Program-made: the position numbers and the translations under genes
Part shown: in pieces, positions 2,326 through 56,657 of the stretch
Layout: every line of letters starts with the position of its first letter
Position numbering within the stretch: position 1 is the first letter of the stretch
Notes under the pieces: model-generated
Told to the model about the DNA's origin: nothing
What the model saw: only the letters and a program-made list of their open reading frames with translations
The model's database searches: none
From: Elusimicrobiota bacterium
GTDB taxonomy: Bacteria > Elusimicrobiota > Endomicrobiia > Endomicrobiales > Endomicrobiaceae
Direction: 5' to 3'
Length of the DNA stretch: 64,000 bases
Assembly (NCBI GenBank): GCA_031274365.1
Contig: JAISQF010000007.1
Coordinates: 8,081 to 72,080, forward strand

Positions 2326-2355
2326 ATTATAATTTATCTTTTTTTAACGCGTCAA
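2326..2355 (-). promoter_or_regulatory. sigma70-like promoter for metQ
   Basis: Minus strand TTGACG (2355-2350) - 18 nt - TATAAT (2331-2326). Confidence 0.5.
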
Positions 2356-2370
2356 CATTTTGTAACATCA

Positions 2371-2762
2371 CTTAACATACTAGACTTTTTATAATAATAG
2401 GTTAAATGAACTTGACAGCATAATTTAATTATTTTGTCGTGTCTTTATTTATATAAAGTTTTTTAGCGGAGACCGAGCAGCCTGAAAGGCTGGATTTTCA
2501 TAACCGTAGGCCAGCGGCCTGCGGAAAAGCCCCCCCCACGTTTTTTCTGCCTGAAAGGCAGGACTACATAAAGGCAGCACGGCACGGGGGCGCGAGCAAG
2601 CTCTGCGCAAGGTAGAGAGAGCAGATGTTATTACAATCCACGGGTCGTTGACCCGCGGTTATGAAAATCCAGCCCTACGGGCTGTAATGCAAAATAAAGT
2701 GTCGCCCCGTGCAAAACTTCTACGACAAAAACATAAGTCTATTATCTGTTTGAGGTTTTTCA
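2371..2762 (+). repeat. modular intergenic element, architecture L arm - class A core - R arm (copy 1)
   Basis: L arm and R arm near-identical to 56281-56657 and related to 5621-6466; core homologous to 5822-6127; no conserved ORF. Confidence 0.85.
2475..2715 (+). ncRNA. candidate structured RNA, class A core (unclassified)
   Basis: Perfect 15-bp long-range helix 2492-2506/2656-2670 plus at least 5 local hairpins; G+C-rich island in AT-rich DNA; strand inferred from G.T pairs. Confidence 0.4.
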
Positions 2763-2775
2763 CATTTTTATAAAA

Positions 2776-3456
2776 CTAATGTGAGATTTTTTTAATAACA
2801 TAATCTCCAAGCGTTTGAATCGCCGTTACTATAAGAACTAAAATTACAACCGTGACTATAGTCACATCCGTTTGATAACGTTGATAACCATAACGAATTG
2901 CAAAGTCTCCAAGTCCTCCGCCGCCTATCGCGCCCGCCATAGCGGTAAGACCCACTAAACTGATAAATGTAATAGTCACTCCGCGTATAATTGACGGAAT
3001 GCTTTCCTTAAAATATACGCGAAAAATTATGCTCACGGGGCTTATGCCCATAGCCAAAGCCGCTTCTATCGTTCCTCTGTCAATTTCTGCCAAAGCCGCC
3101 TGCATCTGTCTTGTGAAAAACGGCGCCGTGCCGACTATTAAAGGCACCATTGCGCCTTTCGTTCCTATCGCCGTGCCGACGATAGCTCTGGTAACAGGTA
3201 TTAAAAGAGCAAGCAAAATTATAAAAGGAACTGAGCGGAAAAAATTTATCACTTTATCAAGAATAGTCCAAAAAACCAGATTCTCCAAAATATCGCCTTT
3301 TCTTGTTACCACAAGCAAAACTCCAAAAACAATACCTATACAAAAAGATATTATTCCGCTGATAAGCATCATATAAAGAGTTTGTCCGGTGCAAAGCAAA
3401 AGCTCGGGAATTTTGTCCATAACATTTGGAAAAAGATATTCTATAATTTTAGTCAT
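2776..3456 (-). CDS. metI: methionine ABC transporter permease
   Basis: 226-aa polytopic membrane ORF, MetI-type BPD permease; overlaps metN stop by 8 nt. Confidence 0.9.
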   Translation of the reverse strand: MTKIIEYLFPNVMDKIPELLLCTGQTLYMMLISGIISFCIGIVFGVLLVVTRKGDILENLVFWTILDKVINFFRSVPFIILLALLIPVTRAIVGTAIGTKGAMVPLIVGTAPFFTRQMQAALAEIDRGTIEAALAMGISPVSIIFRVYFKESIPSIIRGVTITFISLVGLTAMAGAIGGGGLGDFAIRYGYQRYQTDVTIVTVVILVLIVTAIQTLGDYVIKKISH

Positions 3457-5331: not shown

Positions 5332-5393
5332 TTTTTTCTCCTTTCTTAAATTATTAAATTTTTAATACATTTTCAATACTATTTCCCACTTTA

Positions 5394-5456
5394 TTAAAAT
5401 TTTTGATTAAGACAACATCGGAATCCGATTATAACTTCTTTTAATACATTTTTCAT
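5394..5456 (-). CDS. candidate 20-aa leader peptide MKNVLKEVIIGFRCCLNQKF
   Basis: Hand-found mini-ORF in the metQ2 leader, AAAGGAG SD 5 nt before ATG, tandem Cys codons; below ORF-track size cutoff. Confidence 0.3.
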   Translation of the reverse strand: MKNVLKEVIIGFRCCLNQKF

Positions 5457-5543
5457 ATTTTCTCCTTTTGTTATCATATACTACATATACTATATGATAT
5501 GCAATTATTTATATCAATCTCCAAAATTTGATATATTTCACAC

Positions 5544-5604
5544 ATAACATATAAAACATACTTGTTATATATGTTATATTAAATAATTATAAAAATTTTG
5601 TCAA
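5544..5604 (-). promoter_or_regulatory. sigma70-like promoter of metQ-metN-metI with overlapping 10-bp inverted repeat
   Basis: Minus strand TTGACA (5604-5599) - 17 nt - TAATAT (5581-5576); ATAACATATA (5544-5553) / TATATGTTAT (5568-5577) perfect IR overlapping the -10. Confidence 0.55.
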
Positions 5605-5821
5605 GTTTTTGTTAAATTTTTTAATATATTAGACTTTTTATGATAATAGGTTAAGCGAATTTTATGGCATAATTTAATGACGTGTAAAAATTCAACAATG
5701 CGCGCGGATTTTTTATATTTTTTATTTTTATTGTTTTAGCTTTTCTCTTTATAGCCTTAAAGGATAGATTTCCATAACCGTGTGCGACTATGCAAGGGAC
5801 GGATTAGTATCATATGGCGCA

Positions 5822-6127
5822 CAGCCTGAAAGGCTGGATTTTCATAACCGTAGGCCAGGCCTGCGCAAGCAAAATCACCCGTCTGCTCTCTGCCTGAAAG
5901 GCAGGACCCTCTGCCTAAAAGGTAGGCTACATAAAGGCAGCACGGCAATGGGCGCGAGCAAGCTCTGCGCGAGGTAGAGGGAGCGGATGCGACTACAGTC
6001 CACGGGTCGTTGACCCGCGGTTATGAAAATCCTGCCCTACGGGCTGCAAGGCAAAATAAAGTCCAAAACAGAAAACAAGAAAACTAAAGTAAAACAAAGC
6101 CTGAAACAAAACCAAGTGCGCCCGTGC
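5822..6127 (+). ncRNA. candidate structured RNA, class A core (copy 2, with insertions)
   Basis: Same 15-bp helix (5836-5850/6018-6032) and hairpins as copy 1; one extra hairpin and an A-rich insertion. Confidence 0.4.
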
Positions 6128-6199
6128 TAAACTTATATATCAGAGATTATAGCTTTTGTCTTGTAGTGTCTTTATTTATCAAAGTTTTTTAGCGGAGAC

Positions 6200-6427
6200 C
6201 GCATTAGAGGACGAGACTATGAGTGAAATGTTTTTTTGGATTATCATTTGACGATGTGTGAGCCGCCCTTCCTTATGTCGTAATGCGCGGGGGCGGCGAG
6301 TTTGGCAAATGCCAAAAGAATGTTTGGCGTTTGCCAAAAAAACATAAACGAATGTCCGAAGCGGGCAGAGCTAAAAAACAAAAAAATATTTTAATGATAA
6401 AGAGTAAAGGCAAGTATCGTCTCTGCA
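6200..6427 (+). ncRNA. candidate structured RNA, class B core (copy 1)
   Basis: About 90 percent identical by eye to 56381-56607; pseudoknot-compatible helices and twin TTTGGC-N4-GCCAAA hairpins. Confidence 0.4.
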
Positions 6428-6514
6428 AGATTTTTACGACAAAAACACAAGTCTATTATATAGTTGTCTGTCATTACAATTTTGATGACTTGTTGAGGGA
6501 TGCAATTTTAATAC

Positions 6515-16912: not shown

Positions 16913-16962
16913 TTTTTTCTCCTTAAACTATAATTTTATTTATAAAACAAGTATAATTCAAT

Positions 16963-17045
16963 CTATTCATACTATTCATACTATTCATACTATTCATACT
17001 TGTTAAATATGAATTAAGTGTATATAAAATTTATAGCTTTGTCAA
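16963..17045 (-). promoter_or_regulatory. paralogous promoter with the same operator plus a 9-bp x4 tandem repeat
   Basis: Minus strand TTGACA (17045-17040) - 17 nt - TACACT (17022-17017); AATTCATA-N9-TATGAATA; then GTATGAATA x4 (plus strand CTATTCATA x4, 16963-16998). Confidence 0.6.
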
Positions 17046-17401
17046 TACTGTGTTAAATCTTGCAAGTTCAATATGCTAATGCAACACTCTTGATTAAAAG
17101 AAGTCAAATCTGAAACAGGCGTTATAAGCACGGCGGAACATCTAAAATCTTAAGCGAATAGATGCATAGCGACCTGAAAACACAAACCATCATGAATAAT
17201 TTGGACATTGGGAAACTGACTTAATAGAGGGGCAAGGAGCGAGCTGACTATTGATTAGTGTGGAAAGATAAAAGTGATTAACTAAAATGCGTAAAGTGCA
17301 AAACAAGCATAGCGTCAAATTTGGATGTTTTTAATTATTCTATTGCAATAGCAATGTAAATGCGCCTATTTATAATATTTACTCATTATATTTCCCATCA
17401 T

Positions 17402-18133
17402 CTACAAATATTTTTGTAAATCATTTTTAATCAACGCAATGGCATTTTTGAGAATACTATCCGTTAACGGTTTGAAATGTTTATGTATCGGATTGTTTAT
17501 ATCTCTCTCTCCTTTTAAGAATGTAACGATATTTAAGTCAACATCGTTAAAATAACTCATTATTGCATGCGTTGAATGAGCACCAAATACAGTTTTGGGT
17601 AATTCTGAATAATCCCCGCCGAGCTGGCTTTCAAGTTGAAACAAATAGCAAGAAATATGCGGATATAAAGATTTTAGCAGATGAAAATCAACGAGTATTC
17701 TTTTAAGCATTGCATTTTCCGCATAGGCTTTACATTCTATACCCATAACAAATTTTCCATCGATGAAAATATGTTTGTCAACACTTAATCCATAAACGTA
17801 ATCTGCAATATGTTCTTTAATATATTTTTTCACTTTTTCATTTTTGATATTTTCAATATATGATTTTTGTATGGGAATTTTTATTTTATTTGAATTAATC
17901 CCAAGCCGCTCTTGTTTGCCTTTTAGATTAGTCCAAGCAAGTCTGATAATTGCTTCCGTTATTGTTTCTTGCAATTTACCTTTAACCATACGGACAACTC
18001 CGCCATACGCTCTATCAGTCTGTTCTTTGGCTTTATCGTCAACAACCCTCACAACAGTTTCGTAAGTTCGGATTATTTCTTCCACACTAATGTCGGTTTT
18101 GTATGGTCTTATCATTTCTGACACTGTAAACAT
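17402..18133 (-). CDS. putative type II restriction endonuclease (PD-(D/E)XK-like)
   Basis: 243-aa ORF 2 nt downstream of a DNA methyltransferase gene; candidate catalytic motif ..VDKH..GIECKAY..; family not recognised. Confidence 0.55.
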   Translation of the reverse strand: MFTVSEMIRPYKTDISVEEIIRTYETVVRVVDDKAKEQTDRAYGGVVRMVKGKLQETITEAIIRLAWTNLKGKQERLGINSNKIKIPIQKSYIENIKNEKVKKYIKEHIADYVYGLSVDKHIFIDGKFVMGIECKAYAENAMLKRILVDFHLLKSLYPHISCYLFQLESQLGGDYSELPKTVFGAHSTHAIMSYFNDVDLNIVTFLKGERDINNPIHKHFKPLTDSILKNAIALIKNDLQKYL

Positions 18134-18135
18134 TA

Positions 18136-19266
18136 TTACTCCTCGTCTGATTTTTGATTAAACAAAGTGTCGGCTTCCTTCAAACGTTCTTTAGCGGTTT
18201 TACAATATTTTTCATCAATATCTATTCCAATAAATTTTCTATCGAGTTCTTTGGCAACTTTTGTAGTTGTGCCAGCCCCGTTGAAAGGATCAAGGATAAT
18301 ATCATTTTTATATGAAAATAATTTTATCGCTCTCCTTGCTAATTCTTCCGGAAACATTGCGTCGTGTTTATACTGTTTCATTTTTCTTTCAGGTGCAATA
18401 GACCATTTCCCATAAACCCATTTTTTAAATTCTTCAGCTGAAATATCTATATTATATTTTTCTCCGTCTTTCTTTAATGAATTTTTACAAAAAATTTCAA
18501 TGAATTCCCAAGAATATTTTAAGTATGGCGAAGACGGACTTTGCCAACTTCCCCAAGTGCAGTATTTACAATTGTAATTATTTTTTTCCCATATAATTTC
18601 ACCTTTCCAAATAAGACCTTCTTTGAAAAAGAAATTAGATATGATGTGATGTGTTGGAATGTAGTCTGAAAACAAAGGCTGGATATTAACAATAAACCGC
18701 CCGCTGTCTTTGAGAATTCTAATACACTCTCTAAAAATTGCGAACAATTTTTCAAAATAATTTTCCCAAACATTAACATCATTGGTATTATTGTAGTTTA
18801 TCCCAAAATTATATGGCGGCGAAGTTAAAATCATATCTATACAATTATCTGGTAAAGTTTTCAAAAAATCCAAAGAGTTAGCGCAATGAATTTTATTGAC
18901 TAATTTTTCAGGAACTGTATTGTTAATGTTGGGGAAATTCTTTTTATAACACTCATAACCCAAACGTTTTTTTTTATTTGCGTCTTTATTAGCAACTTTT
19001 TTCGCTTTGTTAAAACTTTTATAAACTATTTTCCCATTAGCGCTTGAGAATGAGCGTATTTTATGCAATTCTTCAACAACGCGAAGTATCAATGGGTTTT
19101 TATCAAAAGTTTCTAAAAACCTCAAATCTACCGCATCAAAATTACAACGCAATACGTCCTCGTCAATAATCATCTCAACGCCGGAAGAACTCAATATCGG
19201 CAAAGAAACATTTATATCATTTTTTTTATAAGTATTTTTCAATTCAAGCGTTTTATACATTTCCAT
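18136..19266 (-). CDS. beta-class N4/N6 DNA methyltransferase (motif order IV then I)
   Basis: 376 aa; TSPPYNF (motif IV) precedes DPFNGAGTT (motif I); about 130-aa N-terminal extension of unknown function. Confidence 0.85.
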   Translation of the reverse strand: MEMYKTLELKNTYKKNDINVSLPILSSSGVEMIIDEDVLRCNFDAVDLRFLETFDKNPLILRVVEELHKIRSFSSANGKIVYKSFNKAKKVANKDANKKKRLGYECYKKNFPNINNTVPEKLVNKIHCANSLDFLKTLPDNCIDMILTSPPYNFGINYNNTNDVNVWENYFEKLFAIFRECIRILKDSGRFIVNIQPLFSDYIPTHHIISNFFFKEGLIWKGEIIWEKNNYNCKYCTWGSWQSPSSPYLKYSWEFIEIFCKNSLKKDGEKYNIDISAEEFKKWVYGKWSIAPERKMKQYKHDAMFPEELARRAIKLFSYKNDIILDPFNGAGTTTKVAKELDRKFIGIDIDEKYCKTAKERLKEADTLFNQKSDEE

Positions 19267-19425: not shown

Positions 19426-20121
19426 TTAAATAAGTCCGTATTCTCTAAAACTAAAATATTGAGAGCCCGCTATAATAATATGATCTTGCAAAACAATATC
19501 TACGGTTATTAGAGCGTCTTTGACAGATTTCGTGGCTTCAATATCGTTTTGAGACGGTTTTAGAGTTCCTCCCGGATGATTGTGGGCAATGATAACTCCT
19601 ATAGCTTTATTTTTTAACGCCTCTTCGACTATTTTTCTCGGTTGAATAACCGCTCTGTTGACCGTTCCGGATTCAAGAATAACATTCTTTATCAATTTAT
19701 TGCCGGCATCAAGACTTAGCATACAAAGTTTTTCAACTTTTTCGCCGCTTAAAAGAGATGAAAAATAATCGCTTACAAGTTTTGGAGAATCCAAGAGACG
19801 TCTTTGTTGAATGTTTAGAAGTGAGTAAAGCGCGGAGAAATCTTTTAAGAATTTAATATATATTGCAGTGTGAATTGAAATTCCTTTCACACAACAGAGT
19901 TCTTCTATAGGGGCGTCAATTGCCTGCTTTAGCGTGCCGAATTTATCAATAAGATTTTTGGCTATACTTTTTGTATCTTGACGGGGCATAGCAAATATAA
20001 GAGCAAACTCCAATTTTTCATAATCGTTTGGAAAAGCGTCGTTAAAATTTAATTGTAAAAATTTTTCTTTTATACGTTTTCTATGTCCTAAATAATTCGG
20101 CTGTTGTTTTTGATCGTCCAT
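19426..20121 (-). CDS. radC: RadC-family JAB/MPN domain protein
   Basis: 231 aa; HhH region plus HNHPGG JAMM-like motif. Confidence 0.85.
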   Translation of the reverse strand: MDDQKQQPNYLGHRKRIKEKFLQLNFNDAFPNDYEKLEFALIFAMPRQDTKSIAKNLIDKFGTLKQAIDAPIEELCCVKGISIHTAIYIKFLKDFSALYSLLNIQQRRLLDSPKLVSDYFSSLLSGEKVEKLCMLSLDAGNKLIKNVILESGTVNRAVIQPRKIVEEALKNKAIGVIIAHNHPGGTLKPSQNDIEATKSVKDALITVDIVLQDHIIIAGSQYFSFREYGLI

Positions 20122-55181: not shown

Positions 55182-56066
55182 TTATTTCTCCTCCGCGCTA
55201 TCTTCTATAATACTTTCTTTTAATTGATTATTATCCGCTTGCAAATTATTATTTTCATTTTCTTTCGCCGCTTGCTCGTCTTTTTCAGGCTCGGAATGTT
55301 TAACACTTTCTTCAACATTATTGTTTTGAGCATTTTCCGCGCCGGCTTCTGCTCCATTTTCTTTCTCATCATCCTGCTTTTCAATTACCCCTTTGCCTTC
55401 TAAAACGGCGTCGGCAATCGTTGAACAAAAAAGTTTTACCGCTCTAATAGCGTCATCATTTCCGGGAATTGGATAATCGACTAAATCCGGATCGCAATTC
55501 GTATCGCATACCGCGACGATGGGGATATTTAATTTTCTCGCTTCCGATACGGCCGTAGCCTCCTCATGAGGATCGATTACAAACATAAGTCCCGGAAGTT
55601 TATTCATATTTTTAAGACCTTCCAAAGATTTTTCAAGACGGACTCTTTCTTTCTCTATTCTTGATTGTTCTTTTTTTGAAAGGAAATCAAAAGTCCCCTC
55701 AGTTTTCATTTTTTCAATTTCTTTATAGCGCTGAATTGATTTTTTTAGAGTTTCAAAATTTGTAAGAGTGCCGCCCAGCCATCTTTCGCATACAAAAAAT
55801 GCACCGCAACGCAAAGCTTCCTCTTTAATTGGAATTTGAGCTTGCTTTTTTGTCCCGACAAAAATAACTTCTTTTCCCTCGGAAACATAATCTCTCACAA
55901 CTTTGTAGTTTTTCTTAAGTTCTTTTAAGGTTTTCTGCAGATCAATGATATGTATTTTATTTCTTGTTCCAAAAATATATCTTGCCATTTTCGGATTCCA
56001 TCTTCTCGTCTGATGTCCAAAATGAACACCGGCTTCCAGCAAAGCTTTCATAGTAATTGTTGCCAT
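55182..56066 (-). CDS. rpsB: 30S ribosomal protein S2 with acidic C-terminal extension
   Basis: 294 aa; ..[19 protein letters not shown]..; about 60-aa Glu/Asn/Asp-rich tail. Confidence 0.95.
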
Positions 56067-56200
56067 TTACCTCTCCTTTTAGTTTTTTCTTTTAGGCTGA
56101 TTTATAGCCTTTAGACCTCCGCGGTTTTCAATATCCACAACCCCTTAATTTAATTTTCGGGGACATATGGCTAATCCAACCGCGTGCGTATTTTTCTATA
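56067..56200 (-). promoter_or_regulatory. structured rpsB 5' leader (possible S2 autoregulatory element)
   Basis: Minus-strand helices: AACCGCG/CGCGGTT (56178-56184 / 56120-56126) enclosing GGGG/CCCC (about 56158-56161 / 56141-56144), then AGGCT-N7-AGCCT (56094-56110) next to the SD. Confidence 0.35.
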
Positions 56201-56280
56201 TTTAACAACAACGTTAAGTATATCAAAACTTAAATCATTATACCTATTTAATCTATTTTTGCAAAGATATTGCTAAATCT

Positions 56281-56657
56281 CTTAACATATTAGACTTTTT
56301 GGATGAGAGGTTTAATAAATTAATAGCATAATTTAATTATTTTATCGTGTCTTTATTTATCAAAGTTTTTTAGCGGAGACTGCCTTAGAGGACGCGTCTA
56401 TAAGTGAAATGTTTTTTTGGATTATCATTTGACGATGTGTGAGCCGCTCTTCCTTATGTCGTAATGCGCAGGGGCGGCGAGTTTGGCAAATGCCAAAAAA
56501 ATGTTTGGCCTTTGCCAAAAAAACATAAACGAATGTCCTAAGCGGTCGGAGCTAAAAAATAAAAAAATATTATAACAATAAAGAACAAAAGCAAGTGTCG
56601 TACTTGCAGGACTTCTACAACAAAAACATAAGTCTATTATCTGTTTGAGGTTTTTCA
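56281..56657 (+). repeat. modular intergenic element, architecture L arm - class B core - R arm (copy 3)
   Basis: Arms near-identical to 2371-2762; core about 90 percent identical by eye to 6200-6427. Confidence 0.85.
56381..56607 (+). ncRNA. candidate structured RNA, class B core (copy 2)
   Basis: Same pseudoknot-compatible helices and twin hairpins as 6200-6427; helix substitutions keep pairing only on the plus strand. Confidence 0.4.

What the first reader, a model, noticed from the sequence alone, without database searches (positions are those of the whole stretch)
2371..2762. Modular intergenic element family: conserved arms around interchangeable G+C-rich structured cores (3 loci, 4 cores)
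Three intergenic loci (2371-2762, 5621-6466, 56281-56657) share two arms. The left arm of about 100 nt reads CTTAACATAYTAGACTTTTT .. GCATAATTTAAT .. TCGTGTCTTTATTTAT..AAGTTTTTTAGCGGAGAC. The right arm of about 45 nt reads CTTCTACRACAAAAACATAAGTCTATTATCTGTTTGAGGTTTTTCA. Between the arms sits either of two unrelated 230-300-nt cores: class A at 2475-2715 and 5822-6127, class B at 6200-6427 and 56381-56607. The cores are visibly much G+C-richer than the AT-rich surroundings, densely self-complementary, and carry no conserved ORF. All copies point the same way (+), while every neighbouring gene is on the minus strand. The arms contain a 13-bp imperfect inverted repeat (ACATACTAGACTT 2375-2387 / AAGTCTATTATCT 2735-2747, 11/13; 12/13 in the 5621 locus). 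This fits either a MITE-like mobile shell or a closing helix of a transcript. No transposase, RT, integrase or cas gene is in the window. I cannot match either core to a riboswitch, ribozyme or large ncRNA family I know. A weak plus-strand terminator-like hairpin (CACATT 2761-2766 / AATGTG 2778-2783, then a T-run) follows copy 1.
Basis: seen in the sequence. Interest (0 to 1): 0.8.

Follow-up and report, generated by a model that had tools for sequence, protein, structure and literature searches.

The report
Shared-flank repeat carrying two structured cores
An uncultured termite/rumen-type bacterium (Endomicrobia) carries a real, uncatalogued intergenic repeat in which the same AT-rich flanks enclose either of two unrelated, GC-rich, strongly folding 230-300-nt cores. 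It is most likely a lineage-specific family of small structured RNA genes that has spread to several sites, but neither transcription nor conservation outside this genome could be shown.

Summary
Three intergenic loci (2351-2762, 5598-6466, 56260-56657) share a ~100-nt left arm and a ~65-nt right arm. These enclose two unrelated core classes: A (2474-2718 and 5819-6133, 80% identical) and B (6200-6411 and 56381-56592, 91%). Locus 2 is a composite array.

The window is housekeeping chromosome of an Elusimicrobiota (Endomicrobia) MAG. It has no RT, transposase, integrase or cas gene. Rfam 15 gives no hit. No homologue appeared in relatives' rpsB regions, genome, metagenome or viral pattern scans, phages, plasmids, or six-frame protein searches.

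The cores are the most GC-rich spots in the window. They fold far better than shuffles (z -5 to -7). Class B folds better on the plus strand, and class A has GAAA and UACG loops on that strand. No core has a constrained ORF. Each unit is closed by a U-rich 5' / A-rich 3' complementarity.

There are no terminal inverted repeats at the true ends, no target duplications, no hairpins in the arms, and no convincing compensatory changes between the two copies of each class.

Best reading (~0.4): plus-strand structured sRNA genes in a shared promoter and closing-stem shell, spread by duplication. Rivals are a non-autonomous mobile element and a BIME-like mosaic repeat.

The parts
2351..2473 (+). Locus 1 left arm. 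Contains the outer block TTAACATACTAGACTTTTT (2372-2390) and the invariant box GCATAATTTAAT (2418-2429, candidate -10 CATAAT). Also holds the 5' strand of the closing helix TTTTGTCGT (2432-2440) and the most conserved block GTGTC..AGCGGAGAC (2439-2473).
2474..2718 (+). Class A core, copy A1. Hairpins: CAGCCU-GAAA-AGGCUG, GUAGGCC-AGC-GGCCUGC, CUGCCU-GAAA-AGGCAG, CGGGUC-GUU-GACCCG and CAGCCC-UACG-GGGCUG. A 15-19-bp long-range helix joins GGAUUUUCAUAACCG (2489-2503) to CGGUUAUGAAAAUCC (2657-2671). The copy ends in the shared inner right part AAGTGTCGCCCCGTGCAAAACTT.
   Evidence: I1
2697..2762 (+). Locus 1 right arm. Its inner part overlaps the end of the core. Contains AAAACTT (2713-2719), ACGACAAAA (2722-2730, 3' strand of the closing helix) and AAGTCTATTAT (2735-2745, inverted copy of 2377-2387). 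It ends in ..GAGGTTTTTCA.
2761..2795 (+). AT-rich hairpin CACATT/AATGTG followed by a T-run, just outside the shared arm. It overlaps the metI stop codon (2776-2778). It is a possible plus-strand or bidirectional terminator and is specific to locus 1.
   Evidence: It was not called by the terminator scan, which needs at least 3 G-C pairs.
5598..5680 (+). Locus 2 left arm, 5' part. Contains TTAATATATTAGACTTTTT (5621-5639) and GCATAATTTAAT (5667-5678), here preceded by TG (an extended -10-like TGGCATAAT).
5721..5785 (+). Degenerate left-arm 3'-like U-rich stretch (5721-5744), complementary to the A-rich tail of A2 at 6065-6088 (24 nt, 79%). It is followed by a 5' fragment of a class A core (5745-5785, 86% identical to 5823-5851).
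   Evidence: I2
5819..6133 (+). Class A core, copy A2. It is 80% identical to A1. It has one extra hairpin (CUGCCU-AAAA-AGGUAG) and a 60-nt A-rich tail before the shared inner right part AAGTGCGCCCGTGCTAAACTT.
6154..6199 (+). Internal left-arm 3' part between A2 and B1 (TTTTGTCTTGTAGTGTC..AGCGGAGAC). It lacks the GCATAATTTAAT box. B1 therefore has no candidate promoter of its own and would be co-transcribed with A2.
6200..6411 (+). Class B core, copy B1. Contains a GCCGCCCUU../..GGGGGCGGC hairpin and a double palindrome hairpin UUUGGCAAAUGCCAAA-N6-UUUGGCGUUUGCCAAA. An A-rich 3' segment (6361-6403) is complementary to the left-arm 3' part (6169-6202).
   Evidence: (I5-I7)
6412..6461 (+). Locus 2 right arm (AAGTATCG..ACGACAAAAACACAAGTCTATTAT). 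It is truncated relative to loci 1 and 3, with similarity ending after 6461.
56260..56380 (+). Locus 3 left arm. Contains TTAACATATTAGACTTTTT (56282-56300), the GCATAATTTAAT box and the block GTGTC..AGCGGAGAC (56347-56380).
56381..56592 (+). Class B core, copy B2, 91% identical to B1.
56593..56657 (+). Locus 3 right arm. Contains the hairpin GCAAGU-GUCGU-ACUUGC. The terminal 17 nt CTGTTTGAGGTTTTTCA are identical to locus 1.
2326..2355 (-). Context, not part of the element. A sigma-70-like promoter of metQ (TTGACG-18-TATAAT) whose -35 hexamer directly abuts the outer end of the left arm. The same arrangement occurs at 5576-5615 (metQ2 operon) and 56237-56265 (rpsB).
   Evidence: The rpsB promoter is conserved in relative L002, and a conserved rpsB leader follows it.

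Best explanation
**What it is.** A lineage-specific family of plus-strand non-coding RNA genes built as cassettes.

**Proposed anatomy (inferred).**
- The AT-rich left arm supplies a common promoter. The invariant GCATAATTTAAT box serves as the -10, with transcription starting near 2431.
- The left arm also supplies a conserved about 45-nt 5' segment, UUUUGUCGUGUCUUUAUUUAU.AAAGUUUUUUAGCGGAGAC.
- The right arm and the A-rich tail of each core supply the complementary 3' segment.
- Together these form a long AU-rich closing stem. It presents either of two independently folding GC-rich domains: class A (about 240-310 nt, multi-hairpin, GAAA/UACG loops, 15-19-bp long-range helix) or class B (about 210 nt, three to four hairpins).
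- In locus 2, two units are arranged in tandem behind one promoter box. This suggests a precursor from which units are released at the closing stems (RNase III-type processing).

**How it spread.** The units reached several intergenic sites by duplication or recombination. All sites lie next to the -35 box of a divergent housekeeping promoter.

**Shown versus inferred.** Shown: repeat architecture, absence of coding constraint, exceptional predicted stability, plus-strand bias of class B, and flank complementarity. Inferred: transcription, the start site, processing, and any cellular role. A protein-binding or scaffold RNA is more likely than a base-pairing regulator.
For: **Composition and stability.**
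- The cores are the GC maxima of a 36% GC window. In AT-rich genomes this is the classical signature of structured RNA genes (general knowledge).
- Predicted folding is far better than dinucleotide shuffles: z = -6.9 for locus 1 and -5.0 for locus 3.

**Strand.**
- Class B folds 10-21 kcal/mol better on the plus strand, with 11-17 G-U pairs against 6-7 on the minus strand.
- In its unambiguous GCCGC(C/U)CUU / (G/A)GGGGCGGC hairpin, the two B1/B2 differences convert C-G to U-G and U-G to U-A. Both keep pairing on the plus strand only.
- Class A hairpin loops on the plus strand are GAAA (two or three times) and UACG.

**No coding constraint.** The only ORF open in both class B copies shows 7 nonsynonymous against 2 synonymous codon changes.

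**Closing stem.**
- Nested complementarities between the 5' and 3' flanks occur in all four units. They include the sequence-divergent flanks of A2.
- Duplex energies beat shuffles in 284-299 of 300 trials per unit.
- The three differences in the AAAACUU / AAGAUUU / AGGACUU strand all keep pairing with AAGUUUU through G-U.

**Conserved blocks.** Blocks within the arms are more conserved than the cores: 34/34 and 12/12 against 80-91%. This fits promoter or processing signals under constraint.

**Locus 2.** B1 lacks the promoter box but keeps the closing-stem segment.
Against: - There is no expression data.
- Only a weak -35 partners the candidate -10, and the promoter scan called it in just one locus.
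- No conserved intrinsic terminator exists. Only locus 1 has a hairpin plus T-run, and it lies outside the shared arm.
- Class A shows no strand preference in energy.
- With structures predicted from one copy, most substitutions in the other copy break pairs. There are essentially no compensatory double changes.
- The 9-bp closing helix has two mismatches in locus 3, and both would be G-U pairs on the minus strand instead.
- No homologue was detected in any relative or collection reachable here. That pattern is more typical of selfish repeats than of conserved RNA genes.
- The sharp boundaries next to -35 boxes point to an insertion process that the RNA-gene reading does not explain.
Confidence: 0.4

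Rival explanations
1. **Non-autonomous mobile element.** The two arms are the ends recognised in trans by a transposase or recombinase encoded elsewhere in the genome. The cores are arbitrary cargo, as in MITE families that share ends but not interiors. Their folding is a by-product or helps ssDNA or RNA intermediates.
For: - Same ends with unrelated interiors is the textbook pattern of non-autonomous elements (general knowledge).
- The copies are 80-93% identical while sitting next to genes that are unrelated or only 32% identical.
- Locus 2 contains composite, truncated and nested copies.
- All copies have one orientation.
- The outer left end always abuts (T/G)CAA of a -35 box, which could be a target preference.
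- The family is absent from relatives.
- The rpsB upstream spacer is 681 nt here against 220-365 nt in most relatives. The excess equals the element length.
- Relatives' contigs L002, L003 and L005 break just upstream of rpsB, as happens at repeats.
Against: - The true ends are not inverted repeats of each other.
- The 11-13-bp inverted repeat is subterminal and imperfect.
- There is no target-site duplication.
- The arms have no subterminal hairpins (z about 0), so an IS200/IS605- or REP-type ssDNA mechanism is not supported.
- No transposase is present in 64 kb.
- Only three loci are known.
- Strand-asymmetric G-U pairing in class B and tetraloop-type loops in class A suggest selection on an RNA.
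- Short blocks in the arms are more conserved than neutral decay predicts.
Confidence: 0.3
2. **BIME/REP- or BOX-like mosaic intergenic repeat.** It would act in cis on the minus-strand operons. Transcribed as the 3' UTR of the upstream gene (metI, dctM, mgsA-like), the GC-rich hairpins would stop exonucleases or terminate transcription. That would insulate the next promoter, and the left arm would serve as its AT-rich upstream region.
For: - All three loci sit between the stop codon of one minus-strand gene and the -35 box of the next.
- Terminator-like sites are called on the minus strand inside the elements: CAGCCCGUAGGGCUG followed by GAUUUUCAUA at 2684-2670, and GCAAGUACGACACUUGC followed by UUUUGUUCUU at 56607-56591.
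- Class A folds equally well on either strand.
- The mosaic composition resembles BIMEs and pneumococcal BOX elements (general knowledge).
Against: - Class B is clearly less stable on the minus strand.
- The B1 equivalent of the 56607 hairpin is degenerate.
- The units are 230-300 nt with complex multi-branch folds, not 20-40-nt palindromes.
- Hundreds of copies and a RAYT-type gene, typical of REP systems, are not in evidence.
- No such element is present at these positions in relatives.
Confidence: 0.15
3. **Substrate of an enzyme encoded elsewhere.** One form is a retron-like template RNA: closing inverted repeats followed by UAGC-G, used by a trans-encoded reverse transcriptase. The other is an invertible DNA switch bounded by the TAGACTT/AAGTCTA inverted repeat.
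For: - The conserved 5' segment ends in AAGUUUUUUAGCGGAGAC directly after the closing-stem strand. From my own recollection, this resembles the a1/a2 stem plus the AGC branching-G context of retron msr RNAs. It was not tested against any model.
- An 11-13-bp inverted repeat brackets a 330-810-bp promoter-proximal segment in all three loci.
Against: - No reverse transcriptase, invertase or integrase lies within 64 kb. Retron RTs are normally adjacent to their RNA.
- Two unrelated cores would have to be recognised by one enzyme.
- The neighbouring genes have their own promoters outside the inverted repeats, so an inversion switch has nothing obvious to control.
- The inverted repeat is short, AT-rich and imperfect.
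Confidence: 0.05

Closest known systems
Multicopy sRNA gene families with shared promoter and terminator modules (e.g. streptococcal csRNAs, Vibrio Qrr, Listeria LhrC)
   Same: - Several paralogous intergenic RNA genes occur in one genome.
- They carry a conserved upstream control region and conserved end segments.
- Some are in tandem.
- They have no ORF.
   Different: - In those families the RNA bodies are homologous and short (50-150 nt). Here two unrelated 210-310-nt GC-rich bodies sit in the same shell.
- There is no recognisable terminator.
- Expression has not been shown.
MITEs / non-autonomous transposable elements sharing ends but not interiors
   Same: - Conserved ends surround unrelated interiors.
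- Size is 380-850 bp with no coding capacity.
- Location is intergenic.
- Degenerate and composite copies exist.
- The family is restricted to one lineage.
   Different: - There are no terminal inverted repeats at the actual boundaries.
- There is no target-site duplication.
- No autonomous partner has been seen.
- The interiors are unusually GC-rich and structured, with plus-strand-specific G-U pairing.
Bacterial interspersed mosaic elements (REP/BIME) and pneumococcal BOX elements
   Same: - They are a modular combination of conserved flanking motifs with variable GC-rich, hairpin-forming modules.
- They lie between genes.
- They may act as terminators or mRNA stabilisers.
   Different: - REP units are 20-40-nt palindromes and BOX modules are 45-60 nt.
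- Copy numbers there run to hundreds.
- The cores here are 5-10 times larger, with multi-branch folds and long-range helices.
GC-rich 'ornate' structured RNAs of AT-rich bacteria found by GC-intergenic-region screens (ROOL, GOLLD, raiA, OLE and similar)
   Same: - They form a GC-rich island in an AT-rich genome.
- They have many hairpins with GNRA-type loops, long-range helices and no ORF.
- Biochemical function is unknown.
   Different: - There is no sequence or structure match to any of them in Rfam 15.
- The cores here are smaller.
- They are present as diverged paralogues within shared flanks.
- No cross-species conservation was detected.

Membership tests
Any Rfam 15 family (riboswitches, ribozymes, large ncRNAs, 6S, SRP, RNase P, tmRNA, group I/II introns, HEARO, ROOL, GOLLD and others) | Covariance-model score at or above the family's gathering threshold | tested here: not met
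   - Whole window at the gathering threshold: only tRNA-Asn.
- Permissive E<=10 scans of the three loci gave only sub-threshold chance hits: gyrA RNA 14-17 bits against a threshold of 45, and CrcZ 10 bits against 95.
MITE (TIR-type non-autonomous transposon) | Terminal inverted repeats at the element boundaries | tested here: not met
   - The boundaries from the three-way alignments are about 2351/2762 and 56260/56657. They are not complementary to each other.
- The only shared inverted repeat (11-13 bp, 91-92%) lies 20-25 nt inside each end.
MITE (TIR-type non-autonomous transposon) | Target-site duplication flanking each copy | tested here: not met
   No direct repeat flanks any of the three loci.
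MITE (TIR-type non-autonomous transposon) | Many dispersed copies, plus empty sites or an autonomous partner with the same ends | not testable with these tools
   - Only this 64-kb window of the genome is available. Its proteins are not on record in the contig index.
- The window holds three loci.
- Relatives lack the element, but synteny upstream of rpsB differs, so they are not strict empty sites.
IS200/IS605-derived elements and REP/REPIN (ssDNA, Y1 transposase) | Subterminal imperfect hairpins in both ends, with a conserved target or cleavage tetranucleotide | tested here: inconclusive
   - The arms folded as ssDNA are no more stable than shuffles (z -1.1 to +0.1), so the hairpin criterion fails.
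- The left flank does end in (T/G)CAA in all three loci.
- There is no TSD and a single orientation, which is compatible with this family.
Retron ncRNA (msr-msd) | Adjacent reverse-transcriptase gene | tested here: not met
   Pfam scans of all 61 ORFs of at least 150 aa in the window found no RT.
Retron ncRNA (msr-msd) | Flanking a1/a2 inverted repeats, with a branching G immediately 3' of the 5' repeat | tested here: inconclusive
   - Flank complementarity is present.
- UAGCGG follows the 5' strand.
- The resemblance is from memory and there is no model to score it against.
Bacterial sRNA gene | Own promoter, defined 3' end, and a transcript | tested here: inconclusive
   - An invariant CATAAT-containing box occurs in all three loci, with TG upstream in locus 2. 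The -35 is weak, and the scan called it only in locus 3.
- A terminator-like hairpin occurs only at locus 1.
- Transcription cannot be tested here.
Evolutionarily conserved structured RNA | Covarying base pairs across homologues | tested here: inconclusive
   - Only two copies exist per class.
- RNAalifold finds 1-2 double changes and 8 G-U-preserving single changes.
- Structures predicted from one copy are often broken in the other.
- No further homologues could be obtained.
Protein-coding gene or small peptide | ORF conserved between copies under purifying selection | tested here: not met
   - No ORF is shared by both class A copies in the same frame.
- The 52-codon minus-strand ORF of class B has 7 nonsynonymous and 2 synonymous codon changes.
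- Six-frame peptides have no homologue among 5.8 billion proteins.

The most novel reading that the evidence does not exclude
The loci are expression cassettes of a previously undescribed kind. A conserved promoter plus AU-rich closing or processing stem works as a generic shell. Unrelated ornate GC-rich RNAs are inserted into it, transcribed singly or as tandem precursors, and released. Alternatively they are used as templates or guides by an enzyme encoded elsewhere in the genome. Under this reading the shell is a mobile or recombinogenic vehicle for structured RNAs in Endomicrobia, and classes A and B are two new large RNA families.
Probability: 0.2. Interest if true: 0.75.

Novelty: new variant of a known kind. 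Interest (0 to 1): 0.5.

Why it matters
If the cores are functional RNAs, they add two uncatalogued structured RNA classes from a poorly studied, uncultured phylum. They would also show an unusual way of organising RNA genes: one shell with exchangeable bodies and tandem units. That would hint at a shared maturation or partner machinery. If they are selfish repeats, they are a new type lacking terminal repeats and target duplications, with a striking habit of landing beside -35 promoter boxes of housekeeping operons (metQ, rpsB). Either outcome is testable once the full MAG and its source reads are examined.

Tried and rejected
**Database and pattern searches**
1. Rfam at the gathering threshold and at E<=10: nothing.
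2. Exact-pattern scans gave no usable hit.
   - The right arm had 0 hits in GTDB species genomes.
   - The right arm in JGI metagenomes gave one 21-mer hit, extending to 28/30 nt, in an unrelated GC-rich contig (L001). That contig has no left arm or core, so I judged the hit to be chance.
   - Six arm and core patterns in IMG/VR gave 0 hits.
3. blastn of locus 2 against phage and plasmid collections: no match. The first 20 kb of the window against phages: no match.

**Relatives' sequences**
4. I fetched relatives by RpsB.
   - The set was 80 GTDB loci, of which only about 9 are Endomicrobia, plus 8 contigs from the nearest RpsB homologues.
   - nhmmer with cores and arms found nothing better than E = 0.49.
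   - No comparable intra-locus repeats exist in the relatives.
5. Look-ups of four exact window proteins to reach other assemblies of the same organism: none on record.
6. Concatenated six-frame peptides of both core classes were searched against 5.8 billion proteins, to catch spurious ORFs called on other copies. There was no hit.

**Hypotheses tested and dropped**
7. Segmental duplication with metQ: rejected, because the paralogues are 32% identical.
8. Coding potential: rejected.
9. Hairpins in the arms (IS200/IS605 or REP type): rejected.
10. A partner gene in the window (RT, transposase, integrase, cas, RAYT, Hfq-like): none among 61 ORFs.

**Not pursued**
11. Literature searches for Endomicrobia or Elusimicrobia structured RNAs returned nothing relevant.
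12. I did not build covariance models. Full-length units exceed the calibration limit, and two near-identical sequences add little over nhmmer.
Full report
**1. Observation**

- The right-arm 21-mer ACAAAAACAYAAGTCTATTAT occurs exactly three times and in no shuffle.
- The 34-nt left-arm block GTGTCTTTATTTATCAAAGTTTTTTAGCGGAGAC is identical at 6166-6199 and 56347-56380. It carries a one-base insertion at 2439-2473.
- The 5' motif TTAACATAYTAGACTTTTT occurs three times.
- A self-BLAST finds no further copy in the window. It confirms A1/A2 at 80% over 245 nt and B1/B2 with arms at 90.5% over 294 nt. It finds no similarity between A and B cores.

GC content is 0.55-0.58 for class A and 0.43-0.46 for class B. 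The window is 0.363 and the left arm 0.24. The class A cores are the GC maxima of the whole window.

Refinements to the description:

- The shared right arm begins about 25 nt further in (AAGTGTCG...TGCAAAACTT), and this part follows all four cores.
- Locus 2 is a composite array. It reads: left-arm 5' part, degenerate left-arm 3' part, a 40-nt fragment of class A, A2, a left-arm 3' part without the GCATAATTTAAT box, B1, and a truncated right arm.
- The elements are far more alike than the neighbouring metQ paralogues (32% protein identity). This is therefore not a segmental duplication.

**2. Context**

RpsB of the window is 100% identical to MDR1952142.1, annotated 'MAG: Elusimicrobiota bacterium', on a 76-kb contig. 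The next-best RpsB sequences (at most 89% identity) are Endomicrobium and Endomicrobia MAGs.

Pfam scans of all 61 ORFs of at least 150 aa show only housekeeping genes:

- a methionine ABC transporter with two MetQ lipoproteins, and a TRAP transporter;
- Cys/Met PLP enzymes and histidine biosynthesis genes;
- the rpsB-tsf-pyrH-frr-uppS-cdsA-dxr cluster, pgi and aminoacyl-tRNA synthetases;
- one DNA methylase.

No reverse transcriptase, transposase, integrase or cas gene is present.

All neighbours of the elements are on the minus strand. Each element lies between the stop codon of one gene (metI, dctM, mgsA-like) and the promoter of the next (metQ, the metQ2 operon, rpsB).

The outer end of the left arm directly abuts the -35 hexamer of a strong minus-strand sigma-70-type promoter in all three loci:

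- TTGACG-18-TATAAT at 2355-2326;
- TTGACA-17-TAATAT or TTAACA-18-TATAAT at 5615-5576;
- TTGCAA-16-TATAAT at 56264-56237.

The rpsB promoter, including its -35 box, and a structured rpsB leader are conserved in relatives. The promoter is therefore ancestral and the element sits just upstream of it.

The spacer upstream of rpsB is 681 nt here and 220-365 nt in most relatives. The difference equals the element length.

**3. What the cores look like**

Both classes fold far better than dinucleotide shuffles: z = -6.9 for locus 1 and -5.0 for locus 3.

Class A has:

- short GC hairpins closed by GAAA (two in A1, plus an extra AAAA-looped hairpin in A2), AGC, GUU and UACG loops;
- a perfect 15-bp long-range helix (19 bp in A1), GGAUUUUCAUAACCG / CGGUUAUGAAAAUCC, that encloses the centre.

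Class B has:

- a GC-rich hairpin;
- a double-palindrome hairpin;
- a small AU hairpin;
- an A-rich 3' segment.

Strand evidence:

- Class B is 10-21 kcal/mol more stable on the plus strand, with about twice as many G-U pairs.
- In its clearest hairpin, both B1/B2 differences are wobble-preserving on the plus strand only.
- Class A shows no energetic strand preference. Only its loop types favour the plus strand.

Coding and covariation:

- No ORF is conserved. The one ORF open in both class B copies has 7 nonsynonymous and 2 synonymous codon changes.
- With two copies per class, covariation cannot be established. RNAalifold reports 1-2 double changes and several G-U-preserving single changes.
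- Structures predicted from one copy are frequently broken by the other copy's substitutions.

**4. What the arms look like**

On their own, the arms are unstructured AT-rich sequence (z about 0 as ssDNA).

Between the arms there are nested complementarities:

- TTTTGTCGT/ACGACAAAA (9/9 in locus 1, 8/9 in locus 2, 7/9 in locus 3);
- AAGTTTT/AAAACTT, where the three variant right strands all keep pairing via G-U.

Every unit has a U-rich 5' strand complementary to an A-rich 3' strand. This includes A2, whose flanks are sequence-divergent (5721-5744 with 6065-6088). Duplex energies exceed shuffles with z = -1.8, -1.8, -4.25 and -1.8. That is suggestive but not strong, partly because the flanks are compositionally biased and three of the four units are homologous.

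Short blocks are more conserved than the 80-91% of the cores: the 34-mer before the core, GCATAATTTAAT, and the right-arm 21-mer. This argues for constraint or gene conversion on them. GCATAATTTAAT contains CATAAT, preceded by TG in locus 2. It is the best -10 candidate and would start transcripts at about 2431, exactly at the 5' strand of the closing helix. The -35 is weak.

The real boundaries (about 2351/2762 and 56260/56657) are not inverted repeats of each other, and no target-site duplication is present.

**5. Search for relatives**

- Rfam 15 gives nothing at the gathering threshold or at E<=10.
- Exact patterns from arms and cores give no hit in GTDB species genomes or IMG/VR.
- One chance-like 21-mer hit was found in an unrelated GC-rich metagenome contig.
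- Phage and plasmid BLAST gives nothing.
- I fetched the rpsB neighbourhoods of Endomicrobia relatives: about 9 of the 80 GTDB loci, plus 8 contigs of the nearest homologues. nhmmer with both cores and both arms found nothing. Those loci contain no comparable repeats.
- Searching 5.8 billion predicted proteins with concatenated six-frame peptides of the cores, to catch spurious ORFs on other copies, also found nothing.
- The organism's own contigs are not in the retrievable collections.

As far as can be tested here, the family is confined to this lineage, which has no close sequenced relative.

**6. Interpretation**

Three readings remain.

(a) *Plus-strand structured sRNA genes in a common promoter and closing-stem shell, spread by duplication.* This best explains the following:

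- the GC islands and the extreme stability;
- the loop types and the plus-strand wobble pairing of class B;
- the flank complementarity;
- the conserved blocks in the arms;
- the promoter-less second unit of locus 2, which suggests a tandem precursor.

Its weaknesses are a weak promoter, no shared terminator, no covariation, no cross-species conservation, and no account of how copies reach new sites.

(b) *A non-autonomous mobile element whose arms are enzyme-recognised ends and whose cores are cargo.* This explains:

- shared ends with unrelated interiors;
- composite and decayed copies;
- lineage restriction;
- sharp boundaries next to (T/G)CAA of -35 boxes.

However, it lacks terminal inverted repeats, target duplications, end hairpins and a visible transposase.

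(c) *A BIME/BOX-like mosaic repeat acting in cis on the minus-strand operons as terminator, stabiliser or insulator.* This fits the position between a stop codon and the next promoter, and the two minus-strand terminator-like sites. It is contradicted by the plus-strand bias of class B and by the size and complexity of the cores.

Readings (a) and (b) are not exclusive. A repeat that spreads and carries structured RNAs is the combined picture I consider most likely.

Retron-like or invertible-switch readings are possible only if an enzyme is encoded elsewhere. Nothing in the window supports them.

**7. Novelty and score**

The element is real, is not in Rfam, and cannot be filed under MITE, REP/BIME, retron or any known RNA family by their defining features. 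Its functional status is unproven, and it may be a lineage-specific selfish repeat.

I rate it a new variant of a known kind (intergenic repeat or sRNA family with an unusual exchangeable-core architecture), interest 0.5. There is a 0.2 chance that it represents a truly new cassette system for ornate RNAs.

Noticed in passing
window 56067-56236 (minus strand); also L002:60-188, L003:380-511, L004:1950-2073, L006/L007/L010-L014 upstream of rpsB: A conserved 5' leader lies upstream of rpsB across Endomicrobia: CACACAGTTGGATT..GTCCC..GGG..GGAG.TTGAA..CTGTGGAGGCC. There are apparent compensatory changes between CGCGGUU/AACCGCG (window), GCAGUU/AACUGC (L002) and CACAGCU/GGCUGUG (L007). This is probably an S2-binding autoregulatory leader. 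Rfam did not hit it.
   Followed up: partly
L002:1-30, L003:1-300, L005:1-60, L004:1484-1800: Contigs of three relatives end within 190-510 nt upstream of rpsB. A fourth carries unrelated GC-rich tandem repeats of about 57-60 nt there, and L003 has a 21-bp perfect inverted repeat (GGGGTCTTGCAAAAAGCATAA...). The rpsB upstream spacer seems to be a hot spot for different GC-rich repeats in this clade.
   Followed up: partly
L001:4463-4492 (UOEX01000240.1): The right arm matches 28 of 30 nt, including an exact 21-mer, in a divergent promoter region of an unrelated GC-richer metagenome contig. No left arm or core is nearby. I judged this to be chance but did not prove it.
   Followed up: partly
window 5332-5575 (minus strand): About 240 nt of AT-rich leader lies between the metQ2 promoter and its start codon. 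More generally, a 15-kb sulfur-amino-acid cluster (two metQ, metNI, a second ABC system, two Cys/Met PLP enzymes) has no SAM/S-box or T-box hit in Rfam. Regulation of these methionine genes in this lineage is unexplained.
   Followed up: no
window 6218-6250 and 56402-56431: A tiny hydrophobic ORF sits in class B. In B1 it is MSEMFFWIII, with a GAGGA 7 nt upstream. In B2 it is shortened to MFFWIII by an AUG>AUA change. It is too short and not conserved at its start, so it is probably meaningless.
   Followed up: partly
window 16928-19266: An N6/N4 DNA methylase (18136-19266) is followed by a 243-aa protein with no Pfam hit (17402-18133) and a 474-nt AT-rich gap (16928-17401). RadC lies upstream (19426-20121). 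This is a possible restriction-modification module.
   Followed up: no
L002:6930-8155: A 620-nt tandem duplication (87% identity) lies inside a 734-aa ORF with no Pfam hit in a relative's rpsB-dxr-rseP gene cluster. The window has no such gene.
   Followed up: no
window 55182-56066: RpsB carries a 60-70-residue acidic, low-complexity C-terminal extension. Only a subset of related Endomicrobia sequences share it (those of 287-308 aa). It may be a useful clade marker.
   Followed up: no
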